A stretch of DNA of 64,000 nt from a virus. A model generated the notes under the pieces. It was not told the DNA's origin. It saw nothing but the letters and a program-made list of their open reading frames with translations, and made no database searches. The position numbers and the translations under genes were made by a program. Shown here one piece after another: positions 811 to 20,598 of the stretch; the first letter of the stretch is position 1; each line of letters begins with the position of its first letter. Where the stretch lies: the IMG/VR virus record IMGVR_UViG_3300025151_000001, positions 1-64,000 of that record. One strand, given 5' to 3'.

Positions 811-1020
811 GTAACCCTCTCGGATTAGCCTAGTCTTGTCTAGCATATAATGATGTCGCTTGGCTAAGTTTTTGCCCCGAAATAGCGCGTTTAACTCACG
901 AAGTTGACGTTAAATCGTTCAATTTGCAAAGTTAAAATAAAAATAAAATTTGGAACAAAGCCATATGGTTGTAGGGCTTTGTATCTAGAATCCCATAAAT
1001 GCAAATTGTGTGATTCTGGT

Positions 1021-1290
1021 ATGAAGCAAGAAACATCCTGCTATGATTGTGGAACTGAGATGGATATTGAGATGAATGGTCGAATCGTTGATATCGAAGA
1101 CGTGATGATTCTGTGCGCCGATTGCGACCACTACCGCGAAATCCAGAAGGAGAGAAATAAGGCTCAATGGAAGAAGCATCTTCTCGAACTCGGAAAGAAT
1201 GTGGTTGAGTTGTGGGATGCAGCAGGCGAACCTGAAAACGCAGACGTTTTCCTCAAGGCCAACAACCTCACCCGTGAAGATTTGGTTTGA
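1021..1290 (+). CDS. Small Zn-finger protein (CxxC...CxxC)
   Basis: CYDCG and CADCD motifs; start chosen from promoter spacing; followed by a hairpin. Confidence 0.7.
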   Translation: MKQETSCYDCGTEMDIEMNGRIVDIEDVMILCADCDHYREIQKERNKAQWKKHLLELGKNVVELWDAAGEPENADVFLKANNLTREDLV

Positions 1291-1312
1291 CGGCCCAAAA
1301 CAACGCAACTCG

Positions 1313-1360
1313 GTCCCTGCCCTCAATCCTTCGGGATTGGGGGTGGGGTTTTCATTTTTA
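1313..1360 (+). terminator. GC-rich hairpin plus T-run closing cassette 1
   Basis: CCCTGCCCTCAATCC-TTCG-GGATTGGGGGTGGGG followed by TTTTCATTTTT. Confidence 0.7.
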
Positions 1361-1471
1361 TTCAAACCATATGGTTTAGTCTTTGAATTGTGAAACAATA
1401 AACCCTAAACTACCTATCCTGACGAATTCTATCGTCTCCGGGGTGGAGAATAGCCAACAAAGGTGAAAAAC

Positions 1472-1954
1472 ATGAACACAGAAAAGTATGAAATGAATCT
1501 GAATAAGATTCGTGAATGGATGAAGATGAACGATGCGGGTTCATTGGGTGTTGTGCTTGAAGCACAAATCGCCCTTCCCGTTGAAAACGATGATGACCGC
1601 GTTCGGGTTTGGACGGCTATTCGCGCTATTGCGAAGATGCTCCCAAATTCGCCAATTCGCCCCGGTGCCGCTTCCAAGTATAGCCCCGAGGTTCAAGCGA
1701 CTTTGGACTCTATTGCGAATGGTGTCCGAACTGCTGCGCGTAACTACTTCAAGGCGGGTATGCATAATCTTTTGCGAATGCACGGAAAGTCTGGTGGCGG
1801 CCTTTATGCCGATGCTGATGAATTCGGTGATGCAGAAGCAAAGAAGGTCGTTAACGACCTTAAGCGCCGAATGCGCGAAGGTATCTGGGATGGAACCATT
1901 CCGGGTCTTGATACGCAAACCTTCCCCGTTCTGGAGGTGAACGAAGAAGAGTGA
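1472..1954 (+). CDS. Hypothetical protein, paralog family A copy 1
   Basis: GGTGA SD; shares NDAG..VVL.AQ, W.AIRAIAKMLPN..IRPG, HGK.GG.YA.A and G.W.G with 3815-4330. Confidence 0.85.
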   Translation: MNTEKYEMNLNKIREWMKMNDAGSLGVVLEAQIALPVENDDDRVRVWTAIRAIAKMLPNSPIRPGAASKYSPEVQATLDSIANGVRTAARNYFKAGMHNLLRMHGKSGGGLYADADEFGDAEAKKVVNDLKRRMREGIWDGTIPGLDTQTFPVLEVNEEE

Positions 1955-2095
1955 ATCGTGGCGGATTCCACCCCGGGGGCCCCTTTAGCAGATAATGCTA
2001 TTGGGGTTCCCGTTTCACGGGCAAAGGCCGAACCATATGGTATGTTCTTTGGTTACTTGTTCATACCCTAAAACGTCATTATGTAGGGATTTATC

Positions 2096-2332
2096 ATGGT
2101 TTTATGTAACTGTGCAGAGTGTTTGAAAGAATTTTACGCTGAAGGTGCTGACGCTTATACTGATACACATGGCTTGGACCACCATCCAAGGTGTAATCAT
2201 ATTACGCAGAAGAATTTCAGCGTGATTAGCGACTACATTGAAGTTGACTATTATGGGACCGTTGAAAAAGTTATTCTGTGGCAGGGCTATAATTGCACCT
2301 GTGAAGAAGAATACGACAAGGACGAATCCTGA
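2096..2332 (+). CDS. Small Cys/His-rich acidic protein
   Basis: CNCAEC, HHPRC, CTC; fills one cassette. Confidence 0.7.
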   Translation: MVLCNCAECLKEFYAEGADAYTDTHGLDHHPRCNHITQKNFSVISDYIEVDYYGTVEKVILWQGYNCTCEEEYDKDES

Positions 2333-2461
2333 AAAAGCCCAAAAAACCCTGTATTGGGTTTTTCCTCCTCGTTGGGGTTTTTTCCTCAAAGATAGAACCA
2401 TATGGTTGCTATGCTTTGTCGCTTGTAGCAACCCTATCTACTGTAATTGCTGCATTTTACC

Positions 2462-2800
2462 ATGTCTAAGAAACAAATCGAATACATTGTCGAAAACACG
2501 CGCTCGCACTCGTCAACCTCGTTTGAAACACGGTTTAGAAAACTCTTTTCGGAAAGCAGGTCTGATTCTGCGTTCTCGATGGCCCTTGAGAAGAAGACCG
2601 AGGAAGAAATCAGTATGATTGAGAGCGCGATTGTTGCTTATGTGAGTTTAGAAAAAAAACTGAGGGACACTAAGAGGCAGTTGAACAAAGCGAGTGACGA
2701 CTACATGAAACTTCACAATGAAGCGAGGCGAAACAGGAAAACCCTTGATTCGCTCAACTTCATGTTTCATCAACTACACCAAGTAGGCGACGAATACTGA
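2462..2800 (+). CDS. Coiled-coil hypothetical protein
   Basis: Fills one cassette; heptad-like C-terminal half. Confidence 0.7.
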   Translation: MSKKQIEYIVENTRSHSSTSFETRFRKLFSESRSDSAFSMALEKKTEEEISMIESAIVAYVSLEKKLRDTKRQLNKASDDYMKLHNEARRNRKTLDSLNFMFHQLHQVGDEY

Positions 2801-2918
2801 ACAAACCCGCACGGGTGGCCGAACCTCGGGGGTCTGCGGACCTCCGGGGTTCCTTTCGTCAGACCAAAGTGACTCGAACCATATGGTTGCTGACTTTGGA
2901 TTAAACCCCAAATTTATT

Positions 2919-3209
2919 AAAAATGGGGGTGGTGAGCCGGACTGAATACCGACATGAATGAAGCAGTTTAGGTCCGCTTTGACCGTTGCTCTCCTAGTTC
3001 CTTGGTCTAGAAGCCATTCAATCACATTCACCGACGAATCCGCTAAGAAACGCGCCCTTTTGGGGTCTTACCACGGCATAAATCCACAAGTGCGCCACGC
3101 ATTCACGCATCTTCACTATAGAATTCTGGCCCGCTAAAGCCGAATGTGTCCCTTAACCCCGAGCAGGGGTTATTCGGGCATCACCTGTGCCGGTGGCCGC
3201 CGACACAGT
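2919..3209 (-). ncRNA. Candidate structured ncRNA (~290 nt) in an inverted cassette
   Basis: No credible ORF; several helices; stems pair fully (with G-U) only on the minus strand; promoter-like ACCTC ~27 nt upstream; ends in a T-run. Confidence 0.55.
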
Positions 3210-3314
3210 AATATTGCCACAAAAGGATATGTTTGAGGTTATAACAAAGCCGAACCATATGGTATGGCCTTTGAATGTAATATACCCCTATCAAATGGAA
3301 TAGATGTGTTTTAG

Positions 3315-3690
3315 TGGAGCATGGGGGACAATGACCCCACCACCCGGAAACTCAGCATTGACTCGCTGAAGGGATTCCGGTAAAACGTCGCTGACCGCGT
3401 GAAAGTCTGTAACTGAGCAATCACACATTGTTGCTCCCGTAGCATCCTCAATCAATACGGTAAAAATTTGGTGGGGTAGGTGAAGCGTAAGCGAGTATAG
3501 GCGATTTGAACACTTTGGACAGAAGGTCGAAGGCCGATAATCCTCATTGTTAGAAAAGCCAAAAAACGCCTCATAGTGGTCCTGTAAGCCGCAGCCCTAA
3601 TATAATTGTATTGCAATAGAAAAATGAATCATGATTCAATGCTACCTCTGGGGCGGTTCATTCATCAATGGACCTCGGGGTAGTAATTTC
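3315..3690 (+). ncRNA. Candidate large structured ncRNA (~300-370 nt)
   Basis: Nested helices 3334-3342/3469-3477, 3344-3349/3375-3380, 3352-3356/3365-3369, 3415-3420/3431-3436, 3437-3441/3456-3460, 3499-3503/3567-3571; no ORF of 60 aa or more. Confidence 0.6.
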
Positions 3691-3814
3691 ATTCAAAGGC
3701 TACTACCATATGGTTTGTGCTTTGTAAGTGTAACGCAAACCCCATATGTAATTGGTTGAATGCATTTTACTGTCTAAGGGGGACAACCAAAGGACACACA
3801 TCGGAGAGATTAAC

Positions 3815-4330
3815 ATGACCGAAAAAGACGAAAACTATTGGAACGAAAAAACGCAAACGATTGATGCGTGGATGGAACACAACGACGCCGGAGCGATGGC
3901 GGTTGTTCTTAACGCACAGAATGACCTTTTGAAGCAGAATGTTGGAAATCCTACGGAAGCGGACCAGATTTGGGCCGCGATTCGTGCGATTGCCAAGATG
4001 CTTCCAAACACTTTCATTCGCCCCGGACGCCAACCGGGCTTGAGTCCAGAACTTCAAGCATCTGTGGATTCTGTGGCGCATTGTGTCGAAACTGCCTATG
4101 CGGAATTCTATGAGGCCCATTGGGAACTTCTGTCCGCTATCGTCCTTCCTCACGGAAAGACCGGTGGTCACTACGCAAACGCTCAGGATGCGGCTTCATA
4201 CATGAATGGCCGCACCACGCGCATCCTGAAGGAAGCCATGAAGGATGGCCGTTGGGAAGGCAAGTCGGAAGACGGAATGCCTATCGAATTGGCTGCTCCC
4301 CCAATGCCGGAGGTGGCAGAAGAGGAGTGA
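3815..4330 (+). CDS. Hypothetical protein, paralog family A copy 2
   Basis: Clear similarity to 1472-1954; GGAGAG SD. Confidence 0.85.
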   Translation: MTEKDENYWNEKTQTIDAWMEHNDAGAMAVVLNAQNDLLKQNVGNPTEADQIWAAIRAIAKMLPNTFIRPGRQPGLSPELQASVDSVAHCVETAYAEFYEAHWELLSAIVLPHGKTGGHYANAQDAASYMNGRTTRILKEAMKDGRWEGKSEDGMPIELAAPPMPEVAEEE

Positions 4331-4459
4331 ATTGTCTAAGGAAGTCCCCCTTAGGCCCCTTTGTTCGCCTTTGGGCGTTCAAGTGGGGTTAGTGCAAAGC
4401 AAACCATATGGTAGTAACTTGCGGATTAGCGGGCTACCCCGACTAACCCCCCTTTTGGG

Positions 4460-4597
4460 TCAGCAACGCGTTCCTCTACACCACCTTTCCTCATCTGCTC
4501 GCTTTTCACACCCATACATCGAAATCACACCATCACAGGTATAGCACCTCTGAATGCCTTTTCCACAGTTTTCTTGATTACAGCACTTTTTCGCCAT
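4460..4597 (-). CDS. 45-aa Cys-rich microprotein MAKKCCNQENCGKGIQRCYTCDGVISMYGCEKRADEERWCRGTRC
   Basis: Manual translation; 8 Cys; ACCTTAAG box ~27 nt upstream on the minus strand. Confidence 0.65.
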   Translation of the reverse strand: MAKKCCNQENCGKGIQRCYTCDGVISMYGCEKRADEERWCRGTRC

Positions 4598-4734
4598 GTT
4601 TAGACGTTAGGTCACTAATACTTAAGGTTGTTCCTTAATTCCTTAATTACGTCTTTGACTCTAATTAAGACTCAACCATATGGTAGTAGGCTTTGTTTTA
4701 CTACCCCCATGAATAGCGTCAAAAACCGATTAAC

Positions 4735-4929
4735 ATGAAGATGGAGAGGTTCGAATTGGCTATGAAGCACCTTTTGAAAATGCATGAGAAGGTCATTGAT
4801 GATGCTATCCAACACCATGCCGTGAATAAGTCCTTCACAACGTATGCAAGCGTTGAGGCCCTTATCGCTCAAACTAAAGAAGATGCGGCCTTTGTTCTGA
4901 TGCACGGCAATATTGACGAGGAAGAGTGA
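4735..4929 (+). CDS. Small hypothetical protein
   Basis: ORF track; start matches promoter spacing. Confidence 0.7.
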   Translation: MKMERFELAMKHLLKMHEKVIDDAIQHHAVNKSFTTYASVEALIAQTKEDAAFVLMHGNIDEEE

Positions 4930-4933
4930 TAAA

Positions 4934-5170
4934 ATGAAGCAAGAAGAATCCGTTAGATTTGCTGAAGCCTTTGGATATAAACTGTATCAAGATGGCCTTC
5001 TGCCGCCTTTTGAAGAAAAGGGCATCTATGCAGCAATTGAAGCATTCTGTGGAGCGTGCATGGAAAACAACAACCGCTTCGATGAGGTGCTTTTCTTAGA
5101 AAAAGTGCATGAATTCCGTAACAAATTGATTCAAGAAGATTTGGATAATCATTACAGAGAAGAGGAGTGA
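4934..5170 (+). CDS. Small hypothetical protein, paralog family B (FAE.F...AFC.AC...N.RFDE)
   Basis: Similar to 5468-5668 and 11881-12072. Confidence 0.75.
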   Translation: MKQEESVRFAEAFGYKLYQDGLLPPFEEKGIYAAIEAFCGACMENNNRFDEVLFLEKVHEFRNKLIQEDLDNHYREEE

Positions 5171-5291
5171 AAAGTTAAAAACCCGATGACCCACCCTTAG
5201 GGGTGGCGAGGTCTTAAAATCAAAGTAAGACCATATGGTAGCAGGGCTTTGTTTCTGACTACCCTATCAAATGAGTTTGATTAACATTAAC

Positions 5292-5471
5292 ATGGCAACA
5301 GATTGGACACCTACGAATGTGCTTGAAGGATGGGAAGAGGTTTGGGTCACTTTCCACAGCGAAGAATTGAACAAAGATGTGACCATTGAGGTATGCTCCG
5401 TTGAAGACCTCATTTATCGCATCATTGGCGATTCTTCAGAAGTCGCGGCACGAATTGCAGAGGAGGAATGA
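5292..5471 (+). CDS. Small acidic hypothetical protein
   Basis: ORF track; start MATDW chosen from promoter spacing. Confidence 0.7.
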   Translation: MATDWTPTNVLEGWEEVWVTFHSEELNKDVTIEVCSVEDLIYRIIGDSSEVAARIAEEE

Positions 5472-5668
5472 ATATGGGAATGACCAGAAAGCACTTTATC
5501 ATCTTTGCAGAAGAATTTTCTAAGTTGAAGAACCGGATGGAAACGTCTTCCTATGGTTTGGAGCCTTGGACGGTATATTCTGAAATGCTCGTCGCTTTTT
5601 GCAACGCTGCAAGTGAAGTTAACGATCGATTCGACGAAGAACGGTTCATTGAGGCGGTGAATGAATAA
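5468..5668 (+). CDS. Small hypothetical protein, paralog family B (MTRKHF...NDRFDEERF)
   Basis: ATGA overlap with upstream gene; paralog similarity. Confidence 0.75.
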   Translation: MNMGMTRKHFIIFAEEFSKLKNRMETSSYGLEPWTVYSEMLVAFCNAASEVNDRFDEERFIEAVNE

Positions 5669-5808
5669 ATCAATAAGAAAACCAAAAAATAACCCTTCAA
5701 GGGTTGTTTTTCCTTCTATGTGGGGTTTTATTTTTCAAAGTCACATATTACCATATGGTAGTATGCTTTGTTTTCTACCCCATGAATAAAACCAAAAAGA
5801 AGTAAGTG

Positions 5809-5976
5809 ATGAACATCAAGAGGTTTCAAAAACTGAGGCATGAATACTTGGAAAAATATTTGCATTGTTCTCTTTCGTGGGAAATGGAATTCACATTTGA
5901 ACAGTTCCTTCTATTGGAACTTGAGGCCTATGTAGCCCTATTTCATAACCTTAAAGCCGAGGAGGAAGAAGAATGA
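5809..5976 (+). CDS. 55-aa hypothetical protein (MNIKRFQ...KAEEEEE)
   Basis: Manual translation; promoter spacing. Confidence 0.65.
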   Translation: MNIKRFQKLRHEYLEKYLHCSLSWEMEFTFEQFLLLELEAYVALFHNLKAEEEEE

Positions 5977-6140
5977 CCACGAAACAAAACGAACTTCTGA
6001 AAGAGATTAAAATGCTCAAGCGAGCAATCCGAAACATTGGGCATACGCCCGAAACGGAGAAAATCATTCAGGCACATAACCTTCTGGTTGAAATGTGCGT
6101 GGAACAATTTGAAGAGTTGAGGAAGGTGGAGTCAAGATGA
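5973..6140 (+). CDS. 55-aa hypothetical protein (MTTKQNE...KVESR)
   Basis: Manual translation; ATGA coupling and GGAGG upstream. Confidence 0.65.
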   Translation: MTTKQNELLKEIKMLKRAIRNIGHTPETEKIIQAHNLLVEMCVEQFEELRKVESR

Positions 6141-6389
6141 TGGAGAGGTTTAAGGAGAAATAAGACCGATGACCCCGGCCCATTTGGGTCGGGCGAGGTC
6201 TTATCACAAAGACAGACCATATGGTTTGAAACACAGAGAAAGAATCAAAATGGCTTAATCCCTACCCTCTCCCTATTATTGAATAGGTAGAAATAATCAT
6301 CCCCTTGATTTCCACACCATTTGTTAGGGTGCTTTCAATTGGAGATATGAGTATGAGTATAATCATATGGTATATACTATAGTTAAGTA

Positions 6390-18641: not shown

Positions 18642-19778
18642 ATGGAATTAGAAAAAAATGTTAAAATTTATAAGCCTGACGATACTAGAGGGTTTTATAG
18701 CACAGTATTACTTCTTGGAGAAAATCATCCAAGTAGGATTGAAATACACCCTTCTAGGGCATTGAAAGACCCGGTTCAAGGAGCAATTGCTTCTGAGTTA
18801 AAACTTATTCTTCAGGGTAAGCACAGTCGTTGTTGGTTCTCTGTTTCTGCAAAACCTAAAACAATCACAATCGGTAGCCTACCTATCCTTATTCAAAAGC
18901 AAGGTAGTCGCTATCTTCTAAATGGTCAGGCGCTCAGTCTTAATGAAATTACGAACACTTTGGCGCGAGTAATGTATAAGAGTTGCTTCACTAACGACCA
19001 AGGACTTTTGATGAAGACTATGATTAGTTACATGAATATGCCAGAAAATGTTCGGTATGTTCTGGAGAATCGTCTTCCTTATTTCTTTTATGAGAACTTT
19101 AGGAAGATTGATGTTAGGCTTAACGTCATGCAAATTGAAGATGAGAAATGTGCCATTGAGATTTCAGATGGGGTATGGGGCGAAATTTCTTTCAAGGATT
19201 TGAATACGATGTGTAACTTCTATATCCACGGGAAGCAAAGGGGTTCATGGAAGTTTATTTCACCAGATGACCTTTACTTTAGGTTAGTTGGTGAGCAGAT
19301 TTCAGAATCAACTGAGAAAGTAATGCTTGAGTTTTTGAAGCAGAATCGTCAAAGTGACATTGTTGAAAAGAGAGCCGAAGAATTGATGATGGATTTGCAG
19401 AAACAATACCCTCAAAGAATTAAGATTGTTGAAGGAGAGGATGGAACTACCATGTATGTTCGAGGAAAGGGCTACGATTGGAAATTAACAGACAACAAAT
19501 ATAAGTCTGATATTCAACAAGTTAGCACATATGTCTGGCAACCGAACGGTGTGAAATCAAATTCAGAAACAAACGAAATTGAACTTTCTGAAGCAACTTG
19601 GCGAGGGCCAATTTGCATTGATAACATGGCTAGAGGTTCTTCTTTGGGCGACCAATTTGCTGCAAGAGCCCTTGCACTTCTAAATGACACTTTGACTATT
19701 CAAGTCGTGAATACAATTAAGCGTTACATCAACGCGAATGAAAATGAAAATAGGATTGATTGGCATGAAATGCGATGA
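18642..19778 (+). CDS. Hypothetical protein; C-terminal domain possibly E2-like
   Basis: Long ORF; TYVWQPN...GPICID resembles E2 HPN...GxICL; function tentative. Confidence 0.5.
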   Translation: MELEKNVKIYKPDDTRGFYSTVLLLGENHPSRIEIHPSRALKDPVQGAIASELKLILQGKHSRCWFSVSAKPKTITIGSLPILIQKQGSRYLLNGQALSLNEITNTLARVMYKSCFTNDQGLLMKTMISYMNMPENVRYVLENRLPYFFYENFRKIDVRLNVMQIEDEKCAIEISDGVWGEISFKDLNTMCNFYIHGKQRGSWKFISPDDLYFRLVGEQISESTEKVMLEFLKQNRQSDIVEKRAEELMMDLQKQYPQRIKIVEGEDGTTMYVRGKGYDWKLTDNKYKSDIQQVSTYVWQPNGVKSNSETNEIELSEATWRGPICIDNMARGSSLGDQFAARALALLNDTLTIQVVNTIKRYINANENENRIDWHEMR

Positions 19779-20598
19779 ATGTGGTTCGCGTAACAACACC
19801 TTCGATGAAAGAATGGGTGAACGCATTTGTGATGATTGCGGACTCGTTATTCAAGTCGAAGCCTTTGAAGAAACTGTTCGTCTAAGCATGGGCGAAGATG
19901 GTTCCTTTCGTTCCAAGGATTATGGTCTTGGTTCTGAAACTACCTTCATGAAGCGTGCAAAATCTTCAAGAAACGACTCTGAAAGAACACTAGAGAATGG
20001 TTATAGAGTCATGCGTATGGTAGTTTCATCTTTGAAGTTACCATTTAACATTAACGACAGATTAGAACAAATCTATCGTGAGTTGATTACTAAAGGTATT
20101 CTTTCTGGTTCTACCTTAGAAACAAGAGCAACAGCGATTGTCTACTACGCTTTGAAGGAAAATAGAACACCTGCAACCTTAAAAGAAGTCTGTGGTGAAT
20201 TCCAAGTCCAAAGCAAATTAGTTCGAAAACTAACTAGAAGAATTACTAGACATTATGGCAACAATGTATTAAGAAATGATGATTCCCATTTCTTAATGCA
20301 ACGTGCCATTGCGAATATTTCAAATGACCCTGCCTTTGTATCTCATTGTTTGCAGACATTTGAATTCTTTGAAAAACTAATGAAAGAATTAGATGAAAAT
20401 AAGACAAAGTTGCACTACGCAACAATGGTGTATTTTACATCATACATTCACAACTATCCATACTCAGCAACTTCGATTTCTAAAAATTTGAAGTGTTCTG
20501 CTAATGGAATCAGAATCTCCGGTAGGAGGTTGCTACCCCTAATTGGTCTAAAGGGAGTTGAGCAACTCAAAGGAATTGACCTAGAAAAATTGATGTGA
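19765..20598 (+). CDS. tfb: Transcription initiation factor B (TFIIB)-like protein
   Basis: Zn ribbon CDECGS...GERICDDCGLVI; GLGS; ERTL; cyclin repeats (A.AIVYYA...PATLKEV). Confidence 0.85.
   Translation: MKCDECGSRNNTFDERMGERICDDCGLVIQVEAFEETVRLSMGEDGSFRSKDYGLGSETTFMKRAKSSRNDSERTLENGYRVMRMVVSSLKLPFNINDRLEQIYRELITKGILSGSTLETRATAIVYYALKENRTPATLKEVCGEFQVQSKLVRKLTRRITRHYGNNVLRNDDSHFLMQRAIANISNDPAFVSHCLQTFEFFEKLMKELDENKTKLHYATMVYFTSYIHNYPYSATSISKNLKCSANGIRISGRRLLPLIGLKGVEQLKGIDLEKLM

What the first reader, a model, noticed from the sequence alone, without database searches (positions are those of the whole stretch)
2919..3209. Uncharacterised ~290-nt structured RNA on the minus strand (cassette 5)
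Seen: the unit has no credible ORF. The 5' hairpin CTGTGTCGG/CCGGCACAG pairs fully on the minus strand (one G-U) but has a C-A mismatch on the plus strand. Further stems: TAACCCC/GGGGTTA (3154-3160/3166-3172) and TGAATG/CATTCA enclosing two hairpins. It ends ...GTCCGGCTCACCACCCCCATTTTT. I do not recognise it as RNase P, SRP, tmRNA or an intron.
Basis: partly seen in the sequence, partly recalled or inferred. Interest (0 to 1): 0.72.

Follow-up and report, generated by a model that had tools for sequence, protein, structure and literature searches.

The report
Enlarged manA-type RNA, archaeal virus
The flagged stretch is a real, about 290-base folded RNA gene in a probable ocean virus of archaea; it is an enlarged relative of the known manA RNA and stands alone rather than preceding a gene, which argues against a riboswitch role here.

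Summary
It is not an unknown RNA. Rfam's manA model (RF01745) matches 2926-3205 end to end at 43.7 bits (E 6e-8). That is below the 55.2-bit cut-off because three insertions of 40-52 nt interrupt the core.

I found 23 further copies in related ~95-kb marine viruses whose gene set matches group B magroviruses. A model built only from these viral RNAs finds all 15 canonical cyanophage-type manA RNAs fetched (E 1e-6 to 1e-11). One sister RNA passes Rfam's cut-off (64.4 bits).

Covariation is strong. In 16 sequences not used for the model, 94% of cells pair and 54 of 67 pairs show compensatory changes. The insertions are themselves conserved helices, and a P2-loop pseudoknot or kissing contact also covaries.

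Unlike the canonical copies fetched here, which lie 17-46 nt before an ORF, this unit has a TATA-like box, a T-run at its end and no same-strand gene after it. It is inverted relative to the closest relative.

Best reading: a stand-alone manA-family RNA, possibly self-assembling as a 2026 preprint reports for manA. Expression was not tested. The scan has noted expanded manA-type RNAs in other magrovirus genomes before.

The parts
2919..3212 (-). Whole RNA unit: predicted transcript of about 290 nt, an expanded manA-type RNA
   Evidence: Rfam manA matches 2926-3205 over model positions 1-192. Model R2 matches 2928-3185 at 183 bits. The ends are inferred from the TATA-like box and the T-run.
3245..3273 (.). 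Palindromic cassette-boundary element, CAAAG-N-ACCATATGGT-N-CTTTG, upstream of the RNA and shared with the divergent neighbouring unit
   Evidence: Repeat families D3-D5. CCATATGG, mostly with flanking CAAAG/CTTTG arms, lies upstream of the RNA in nearly all 23 homologues checked.
3226..3234 (-). TATA-like promoter box AAACATATC, about 20-27 nt before the P1 hairpin
   Evidence: A similar box (mostly AACC-N-TAT/TAA) at similar spacing in most of the 23 homologues. In this window a matching box lies 27 nt before the start codon in two apparently leaderless protein cassettes, next to the cores at 2033 and 2398. Promoter function is inferred.
3186..3207 (-). P1 hairpin: 8 pairs (9 with C3208-G3185) and loop CGGCCA, which contains the self-complementary GGCC
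   Evidence: P1 covaries as helix 1.
3181..3185 (-). Closing stem, 5' strand GGUGA, pairing with 2931-2935
   Evidence: Pair types across the family are GGGAG/CUCCC, GGGUG/CACCC, GGGAU/AUCCC and GGUGA/UCACC.
3150..3178 (-). P2 arm. CCC/GGG and UAACCCC/GGGGUUA, with the conserved GAAUAA (3175-3170) and UAAGG (3155-3151). The loop UGCUC (3165-3161) is one partner of the pseudoknot or kissing contact.
3023..3148 (-). P3 domain. The stem CACAUUC/GAAUGUG encloses P3a (3129-3141), P3b (about 3092-3118), P3c CCC-CAAAA-GGG (3055-3065) and P3d (about 3034-3054). In this copy P3d is weakened by two U-U mismatches.
   Evidence: Helices 4-9. Window coordinates. This domain holds Rfam's 40- and 52-nt 'insertions'.
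2955..3020 (-). P4 domain. The stem UGAAUG/CAUUCA encloses P4a CUUCUAG/CUAGGAG (3013-3007 / 2997-2991), the segment GAGCA (2991-2987) that pairs with the P2 loop, and P4b AAGCGG/CUGCUU (2979-2974 / 2966-2961).
   Evidence: Helices 10-12..
2936..2953 (-). P5 hairpin GUCGG-UAUUCAGU-CCGGC, carrying the conserved GGUA...UCC
   Evidence: helix 13, 100% paired.
2919..2935 (-). Closing stem 3' strand UCACC (2935-2931), tail ACCCCCA, and U5 run (2923-2919) as the likely termination site
   Evidence: A short T-run follows the RNA in most homologues. Termination is inferred.
2878..2910 (.). Downstream palindromic boundary element of the cassette
   Evidence: Repeat family D1.

Best explanation
This is a self-contained gene for a non-coding RNA of about 290 nt, read from the minus strand. 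It belongs to the manA RNA family in an enlarged form.

Shown:
- It keeps the manA core: the closing stem, P2 with GAAUAA/UAAGG, the P3 and P4 arms, P5 with GGUA...UCC, and the CCACC tail.
- It keeps the contact between the P2 loop and the P4 region.
- It adds conserved helices P3b-d and P4a-b where canonical manA has short hairpins or a loop.

Inferred:
- It is transcribed from its own archaeal-type TATA-like box beside the CCATATGG palindrome, starting within a few bases of P1.
- It ends at the U-run just after the closing stem, so it works as a free RNA and not as the leader of an mRNA.

Most likely mode of action, by analogy only: copies bind one another through loop-loop contacts into closed multi-copy RNA particles, as a 2026 cryo-EM preprint reports in vitro for canonical manA RNAs. 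The extra peripheral helices would then set the geometry. What such a particle does during infection is unknown.

My odds: manA-family RNA 0.9; stand-alone transcript 0.75; self-assembly 0.45.
For: Identity:
- Rfam manA matches the full model at E 1.4e-9 (1.5 kb searched) and 6.2e-8 (whole window).
- Model R2, built only from 8 viral homologues, hits all 15 canonical manA RNAs fetched over their full length at 30-49 bits.
- A sister RNA (L196/L171) passes Rfam's cut-off at 64.4 bits; others score 46-52.

Structure:
- Covariation as given in the observation check.
- Complementarity between the P2 loop and the segment just 3' of P4a covaries: summed run length 130 against 90.8 +/- 5.4 in re-pairings, 0 of 5000 as high. 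Canonical manA has GGCAU/AUGCC at the matching places.

Stand-alone status:
- The palindrome (with CAAAG/CTTTG arms in most) and a TATA-like box precede the RNA in most of the 23 homologues checked; most are followed by a short T-run.
- Two leaderless protein cassettes in this window have a matching box 27 nt before the start codon.
- No same-strand ORF follows the RNA; a plus-strand gene (2462-2800) converges on it.
- The RNA alone is inverted relative to collinear flanks in the closest relative, L114, at 86.5% identity.
- The canonical manA copies fetched here have a same-strand ORF 17-46 nt downstream in 11 of the 12 loci with enough flank.

Prevalence: one copy in 7 of 9 complete related genomes.

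Assembly (indirect):
- manA RNAs form 8-, 10- and 60-subunit particles from pentamers held by kissing loops (bioRxiv 10.64898/2026.07.01.735769).
- P1 loops carry differing self-complementary words, UCAUGA, GCAUGC, UAAUUA and GGCC, in 12 of 24 homologues.
Against: - No expression data.
- The score is below Rfam's gathering cut-off.
- Folding energy is no better than that of shuffled sequence.
- Self-assembly has been reported only in vitro, in a preprint, and for shorter canonical manA RNAs.
- Half of the homologues have non-palindromic P1 loops (UCGCU, GGCA).
- The P2-loop contact could be an ordinary pseudoknot within one molecule.
- The T-run after the RNA is short or absent in some homologues.
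- P3d is weakened in this particular copy.
- The archaeal host is inferred from gene content, not shown.
Confidence: 0.6

Rival explanations
1. Trans-acting monomeric RNA. The manA-type fold binds a host or viral protein, a metabolite or part of the translation apparatus as a single molecule (decoy, sponge or cofactor), without forming multi-copy particles.
For: The evidence for stand-alone status is the same. The invariant unpaired nucleotides (GAAUAA, UAAGG, the CAAAA loop, GGUA...UCC) fit a binding pocket as well as they fit an interface. The family occurs in viruses of both bacteria and probable archaea, which would suit a universal target.
Against: The only experimental data on this family, a preprint, show oligomers. 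No partner is indicated by gene neighbourhood, because the neighbours are shuffled among relatives.
Confidence: 0.25
2. Cis-regulatory leader (riboswitch), as manA is annotated in Rfam. The RNA senses a ligand and controls a gene downstream on the same transcript.
For: The canonical manA RNAs fetched here sit 17-46 nt before an ORF, and Weinberg 2010 (PMC2864571) rated manA a riboswitch candidate. In many relatives a same-strand gene follows at a greater distance, starting about 390-1200 nt from the start of the RNA.
Against: In this window no same-strand gene follows, and the next gene converges on the RNA. The unit is inverted relative to the closest relative while the RNA sequence is kept. 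In L114 a T-run, a palindrome and a new TATA-like box lie between the RNA and the next ORF. No expression platform is seen.
Confidence: 0.08
3. DNA-level element. The stems serve as single-stranded DNA structure for cassette recombination or replication, not as RNA.
For: The unit lies between palindromes at which cassettes have been rearranged.
Against: Many conserved G-U pairs exist only on the modelled strand and would be C-A on the other. The model hits one strand only. Homology to an RNA family with solved RNA structures. The rearrangement breakpoints lie outside the RNA.
Confidence: 0.03
4. Small protein gene, for example the 85-codon minus-strand ORF 2774-3031.
For: An ORF of that size is listed.
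Against: No frame stays open across the homologues. Substitutions follow base-pairing, not codons. Loop lengths vary freely.
Confidence: 0.01

Closest known systems
manA RNA motif (Rfam RF01745; Weinberg et al. 2010, PMC2864571)
   Same: Same order of helices: P1, closing stem, P2, P3 arm, P4 arm, P5. Same conserved junction nucleotides (GAAUAA, UAAGG, GUGGUG-type P3a loop, GGUA...UCC, CCACC tail). Same P2-loop to P4-region complementarity. Covariance-model matches in both directions.
   Different: - About 290 nt instead of about 190.
- Three 'insertions' that are conserved extra helices (P3b-d, P4a-b).
- Below Rfam's cut-off.
- In magrovirus-like viruses (probable archaeal host) rather than T4-like cyanophages or gamma-proteobacteria.
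- Has its own TATA-like box and T-run, and no adjacent downstream ORF; the canonical copies fetched here have one within 17-46 nt.
- Sits in an invertible cassette.
manA RNA-only cages (bioRxiv 10.64898/2026.07.01.735769, 2026)
   Same: Same family core. The preprint states that variants keep the core and differ in peripheral helices, which hold the kissing-loop interfaces. Here the variation is also peripheral, and loop complementarities covary.
   Different: No structure or oligomer data exist for this variant. It has more peripheral helices than any RNA in that study, all of which were under 200 nt. The preprint is in vitro only and gives no biological role.
Large ornate RNAs of phages and bacteria (ROOL, GOLLD, OLE, raiA), reported to form RNA-only multimers (my own knowledge; also referred to in the preprint's introduction)
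   Same: Virus-encoded, stand-alone, many-helix RNAs near tRNA genes or in accessory regions, of unknown function, with homo-oligomerisation as an emerging theme.
   Different: No sequence or structure match to any of them in Rfam. This RNA is much smaller and has a different fold.
Promoter-stem-loop (PeSL) gene cassettes of T4-type phages (Arbiol et al. 2010; my own knowledge, also named in scan note e1-6001266)
   Same: Small self-contained units, each with a promoter and an end signal, are shuffled between related viruses at a repeated boundary element.
   Different: This applies to the surroundings, not to the RNA itself. The boundary here is a CCATATGG palindrome, mostly with CAAAG/CTTTG arms, next to archaeal-type TATA-like boxes.

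Membership tests
manA RNA (Rfam RF01745) | Bit score at or above Rfam's gathering cut-off (55.2) | tested here: not met
   43.7 bits, E 6.2e-8 for the whole window. The sister RNA L196 scores 64.4 bits (met); L206 52.4, L194 48.3, L120 47.4, L195 46.0.
manA RNA (Rfam RF01745) | Core architecture and conserved junction nucleotides: closing stem, P2 with GAAUAA/UAAGG, P3 multi-hairpin arm, P4, P5 with GGUA...UCC, CCACC tail | tested here: met
   Full-model alignment over positions 1-192 with standard pairs in all core stems. Descriptor search. Consensus fold of the homologues.
manA RNA (Rfam RF01745) | Complementarity between the P2 loop and the P4 loop region (the 'pseudoknot?' of Weinberg 2010) | tested here: met
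   UGCUC (3165-3161) with GAGCA (2991-2987). It covaries across 20 distinct homologues, 0 of 5000 re-pairings as high. GGCAU/AUGCC is visible in the canonical copies.
manA RNA (Rfam RF01745) | Reciprocal recognition: a model of the candidate's own clade finds canonical members | tested here: met
   R2 hits all 15 canonical manA RNAs fetched at 30-49 bits, E 5e-6 to 4e-11, over the full model.
manA RNA (Rfam RF01745) | Location in the 5' untranslated region directly before a gene (the family's 'Cis-reg' type) | tested here: not met
   No same-strand ORF follows; a convergent gene ends at 2800. The unit is inverted relative to L114. The canonical copies fetched here have an ORF 17-46 nt downstream.
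manA RNA (Rfam RF01745) | Pentamer-based homo-oligomers (preprint 10.64898/2026.07.01.735769) | not testable with these tools
   Needs native gels, SEC or cryo-EM. The only indirect hints are palindromic P1 loops and covarying loop complementarity.
Riboswitch (generic) | Aptamer followed by an expression platform that controls a downstream gene on the same transcript | tested here: not met
   The closing stem is followed at once by a U-run and then the next cassette boundary. No intrinsic terminator or start-site sequestering stem is linked to a gene.
ROOL / GOLLD / OLE / raiA and other catalogued large RNAs | Match to the family's covariance model | tested here: not met
   Besides manA, the only Rfam matches in the whole window at E up to 1 are three tRNAs and a chance hit on a tRNA's opposite strand.
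Magrovirus group B/B1 (genomic context; Philosof 2017, PMC5434244) | Genome of about 90-100 kb with GroEL, ribonucleotide reductase, ATP-dependent ligase, clamp loader, family-B DNA polymerase (split in B1), and tRNA-Leu and tRNA-Arg | tested here: met
   92,240 bp with terminal repeats. GroEL, RNR, ligase, PolB. A second PolB piece, an RFC-like ATPase and TFB. tRNA-Leu, -Lys and -Arg. The paper's description. The host is inferred, not shown.

The most novel reading that the evidence does not exclude
Probable archaeal viruses (magroviruses) and bacterial viruses (cyanophages) share one RNA fold that builds RNA-only shells. In the magrovirus form it would be a free-standing gene whose added helices (P3b-d, P4a-b) and palindromic P1 loops re-programme the size or symmetry of the particle. 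The particle would be made during infection to enclose, concentrate or shield something, making it a virus-encoded RNA compartment working across two domains of life.
Probability: 0.3. Interest if true: 0.85.

Novelty: new variant of a known kind. Interest (0 to 1): 0.6.

Why it matters
manA has been an orphan 'riboswitch candidate' since 2010. A 2026 preprint reports that it builds RNA-only cages in vitro, but no biological setting is known.

This clade offers one. The manA core is a separate gene with a promoter-like box, in abundant ocean viruses thought to infect archaea. It is kept in most complete genomes checked while its position and orientation change. That argues against control of a neighbouring gene and makes the free-RNA reading directly testable.

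It also shows that standard Rfam annotation misses most of this clade, and it supplies a model and 24 sequences with which to find more. The extra helices are natural variants for testing how peripheral contacts set particle geometry.

Tried and rejected
- Rfam at gathering threshold found only tRNAs.
- The genome search with RF01745 on the virus's own genome found nothing, because its first-pass filter dropped the site.
- BLAST of the RNA against GenBank phages and against 23 related virus records gave no real match, so the sequence is too diverged for BLAST.
- The pattern GGTATNCAG...CCACC returned canonical manA plus 9 loci with no manA match that I take as chance hits.
- The pattern GGTANTCANTCC...CCACC added no new member.
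- Eight loci from pattern ACAGGGATTGACNGAATA looked coding-like and were rejected (L197-199, L203-207).
- Model R1, built from 14 near-identical cyanophage-type manA RNAs, was too narrow. It scored the window's RNA at only 5 bits, but it did find L171 and L154.
I dropped P1 and built R2.
- Folding-energy z-scores were not significant.
- The sigma-70 promoter and intrinsic terminator scan found nothing at the unit.
- I tested whether the neighbouring cassette (3315-3690) matches the conserved modules that follow the RNA in relatives. Only the palindromes match.
- Pfam found nothing for the neighbouring small proteins.

Full report
**What is there**

- The 5' hairpin CUGUGUCGG/CCGGCACAG has one U-G pair, which would be a C-A mismatch on the other strand.
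- UAACCCC/GGGGUUA lies at 3172-3166 / 3160-3154.
- UGAAUG/CAUUCA encloses two hairpins.
- The 3' end reads ...CACCACCCCCAUUUUU.

Minimum-free-energy folding is no better than for shuffled sequence: z = -0.65 on the minus strand and +0.30 on the plus strand. The single sequence therefore proves nothing by itself.

**Identity**

At Rfam's gathering thresholds only three tRNAs are found in the window. With E-value reporting, the manA model (RF01745) aligns to 2926-3205 on the minus strand over all 192 model positions. The score is 43.7 bits against a cut-off of 55.2, with E 1.4e-9 for 1.5 kb and 6.2e-8 for the whole window.

All core stems pair, several through changes on both sides relative to the consensus. 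For example, the closing stem is GGUGA/UCACC instead of GGGAG/CUCCC. The conserved unpaired nucleotides are present: GAAUAA, UAAGG, GGUA...UCC and the CCACC tail. The score is low because 40, 52 and 45 nt are inserted in the P3 and P4 arms.

**The genome**

The window is the first 64 kb of a 92,240-bp virus record with direct terminal repeats. It encodes:
- a helicase, ribonucleotide reductase, GroEL, an ATP-dependent ligase and a family-B DNA polymerase;
- a second polymerase piece, an RFC-like ATPase and a TFIIB/TFB homologue;
- tRNA-Leu, tRNA-Lys and tRNA-Arg.

The nearest cultured relatives of the polymerase are haloarchaeal tailed viruses and T4-like phages, at about 25% identity. This gene set matches the published description of group B/B1 magroviruses, viruses assigned to Marine Group II archaea (Poseidoniales) (PMC5434244). 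The host is inferred from this, not shown. More than 590 stretches in IMG/VR encode a related polymerase.

**Homologues**

BLAST finds no copy of the RNA in GenBank phages or in 23 related virus records. I therefore combined three approaches:
- a model built from canonical manA (R1);
- a descriptor script;
- one IMG/VR pattern scan.

These gave seven more copies. Aligned with the window's RNA, they fold into 13 helices with 73 pairs, 45 of them with compensatory changes. 92.2% of cells are paired, against 75% in shuffles and 39-45% with slid partners; 0 of 500 shuffles reach the observed values.

A covariance model of this clade without P1 (R2) then found 22 copies in 80 loci flanking the helicase gene of related viruses. 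It found one copy in 7 of 9 complete genomes.

On 16 sequences not used for the model, 94.3% of cells pair and 54 of 67 pairs show compensatory changes; slid partners give 12-27 pairs. That alignment is fitted to the model, so it leans towards the structure.

The helices that Rfam treats as insertions are themselves supported. These are P3b, P3c with an invariant CAAAA loop, P3d, P4a and P4b.

No reading frame is conserved.

**Link to manA confirmed both ways**

R2, built only from the viral RNAs, hits all 15 canonical cyanophage-type manA RNAs that I had fetched. The hits cover the full model at 30-49 bits, with E 5e-6 to 4e-11. Those same RNAs score 170-186 bits with Rfam.

Rfam's model scores the sister RNAs at 64.4 (L196, above the cut-off), 52.4, 48.3, 47.4 and 46.0 bits. 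The clade therefore grades into the catalogued family, and standard annotation misses most of it.

**A long-range contact**

The P2 loop is complementary to the segment just 3' of P4a. In the window this is UGCUC (3165-3161) with GAGCA (2991-2987).

The pairing covaries across the clade. Examples are AUGGUCG/CGACCAU, GGACG/CGUCC, CUUUAGGCG/CGUCUAAAG, AUAGACG/CGUCUAU and CUUUGAUAGC/GUUAUCAAAG. The summed run length is 130, against 90.8 +/- 5.4 when partners are re-dealt among 20 distinct sequences; 0 of 5000 re-pairings are as high.

Canonical manA has GGCAU in the P2 loop and AUGCC in the P4 loop, which is the 'pseudoknot?' of Weinberg 2010. Sequence alone cannot say whether the contact forms within one molecule or between copies.

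**Context: a free-standing, movable unit**

- Upstream signals. Nearly all 23 homologues checked have CCATATGG upstream, in most with the full palindrome CAAAG-N-ACCATATGGT-N-CTTTG. Most then have a TATA-like box (mostly AACC-N-TAT/TAA; AAACATATC here) about 20-27 nt before P1. Most have a short T-run just after the closing stem.
- Same box at protein cassettes. In this window a matching box lies 27 nt before the start codon of two apparently leaderless protein cassettes, next to the cores at 2033 and 2398. The RNA's start therefore probably lies within a few bases of P1. This is inference.
- No gene to regulate. No same-strand ORF follows the RNA; the plus-strand gene 2462-2800 converges on it.
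- Inversion. Against the closest relative (L114, helicase 84% identical), the flanks are collinear but the RNA alone (2927-3210) is inverted, at 86.5% identity.
- Shuffled neighbours. Neighbouring genes differ among relatives and include many paralogues of one family with no Pfam match.
- Contrast with canonical manA. The copies fetched here have a same-strand ORF 17-46 nt downstream in 11 of the 12 loci with enough flank, as described in 2010.
- Extra modules elsewhere. In many relatives the RNA is followed by further conserved modules of about 170-320 nt. These are absent here and in L114. The window thus holds the manA-type module on its own.

**How it probably works**

A 2026 preprint reports cryo-EM structures of manA RNAs as closed octamers, decamers and a 60-subunit icosahedral-like cage. 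All are built from pentamers held by kissing loops, and variants share a core but differ in peripheral helices (10.64898/2026.07.01.735769). It gives no biological role.

The magrovirus clade differs from canonical manA in exactly those peripheral parts. Its P1 loops carry differing self-complementary words in 12 of 24 sequences: UCAUGA, GCAUGC, UAAUUA, and GGCC here. I therefore favour a free RNA that self-assembles. This step is analogy only.

The main rival is a monomeric trans-acting RNA that binds a protein, metabolite or universal machine. A riboswitch for a neighbouring gene is unlikely here. DNA-level and coding readings are effectively excluded.

**Limits**

- The promoter, the start and end of the RNA, and the host are all inferred.
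- R2's E-values are rough, because calibration was short.
- P3d is weakened in this copy.

**Earlier scan notes**

The scan has already reported expanded manA-type RNAs in other magrovirus genomes and in other phages. I reached the manA assignment and the preprint independently, before reading those notes.

Noticed in passing
window 3315-3690 (+): The neighbouring cassette diverges from the same palindrome (3245-3273), with its own box ACCCCTATC about 27 nt before about 3316. It has no Rfam match and does not resemble the modules that follow the manA-type RNA in relatives.
   Followed up: partly
window 956-6230; L114-L175 upstream of the helicase: There are 12 CCATATGG cores in the first 6.3 kb, most with CAAAG/CTTTG arms and many with a TATA-like box on one or both sides. 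The same element bounds units in related viruses, where units are reordered and flipped.
   Followed up: partly
L119, L133, L117, L123, L164, L126, L202, L152/L153: 1-320 nt after the RNA's 3' end: In many relatives the manA-type RNA is followed by conserved sequence of about 170-320 nt (starting ATTCCTATGGCTATTAGTGGCCATAAAACCATAG...AAACAAAGCCGAAAC) with no ORF noted. It may be further RNA domains of the same transcript. It is absent from the window and from L114.
   Followed up: partly
window 1463-1954 (+), 3752-4330 (+): Two paralogues of a protein family of about 160-200 aa occur in 1-4 copies beside the RNA in all 23 loci examined (family F0). They share a 58-nt DNA repeat (D8). No Pfam match.
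   Followed up: partly
L002, L005, L024, L020 (canonical manA P1 loops): Some cyanophage-type manA RNAs also carry self-complementary words in the P1 loop (UGAUCA, GAUC), as the magrovirus clade does.
   Followed up: no
window 19738-20598 (+): A TFIIB/TFB homologue (zinc ribbon plus cyclin repeat, E about 1e-8) encoded by the virus. It fits archaeal-type promoters on the cassettes.
   Followed up: partly
G003 (IMGVR_UViG_3300021958_000021, 184,733 bp): This record holds two different helicase loci about 94 kb apart (L119, L128) but only one manA-type RNA. It may be two related genomes joined in assembly.
   Followed up: no
L129:17522-17549 (-): A P5-like hairpin (AUCGGUAGUGUCAUUCCGAU) followed by UGGUG GCC, about 10 kb downstream of the helicase gene, picked up by the relaxed descriptor. 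R2 did not report it, so it is possibly chance or a more distant variant.
   Followed up: no
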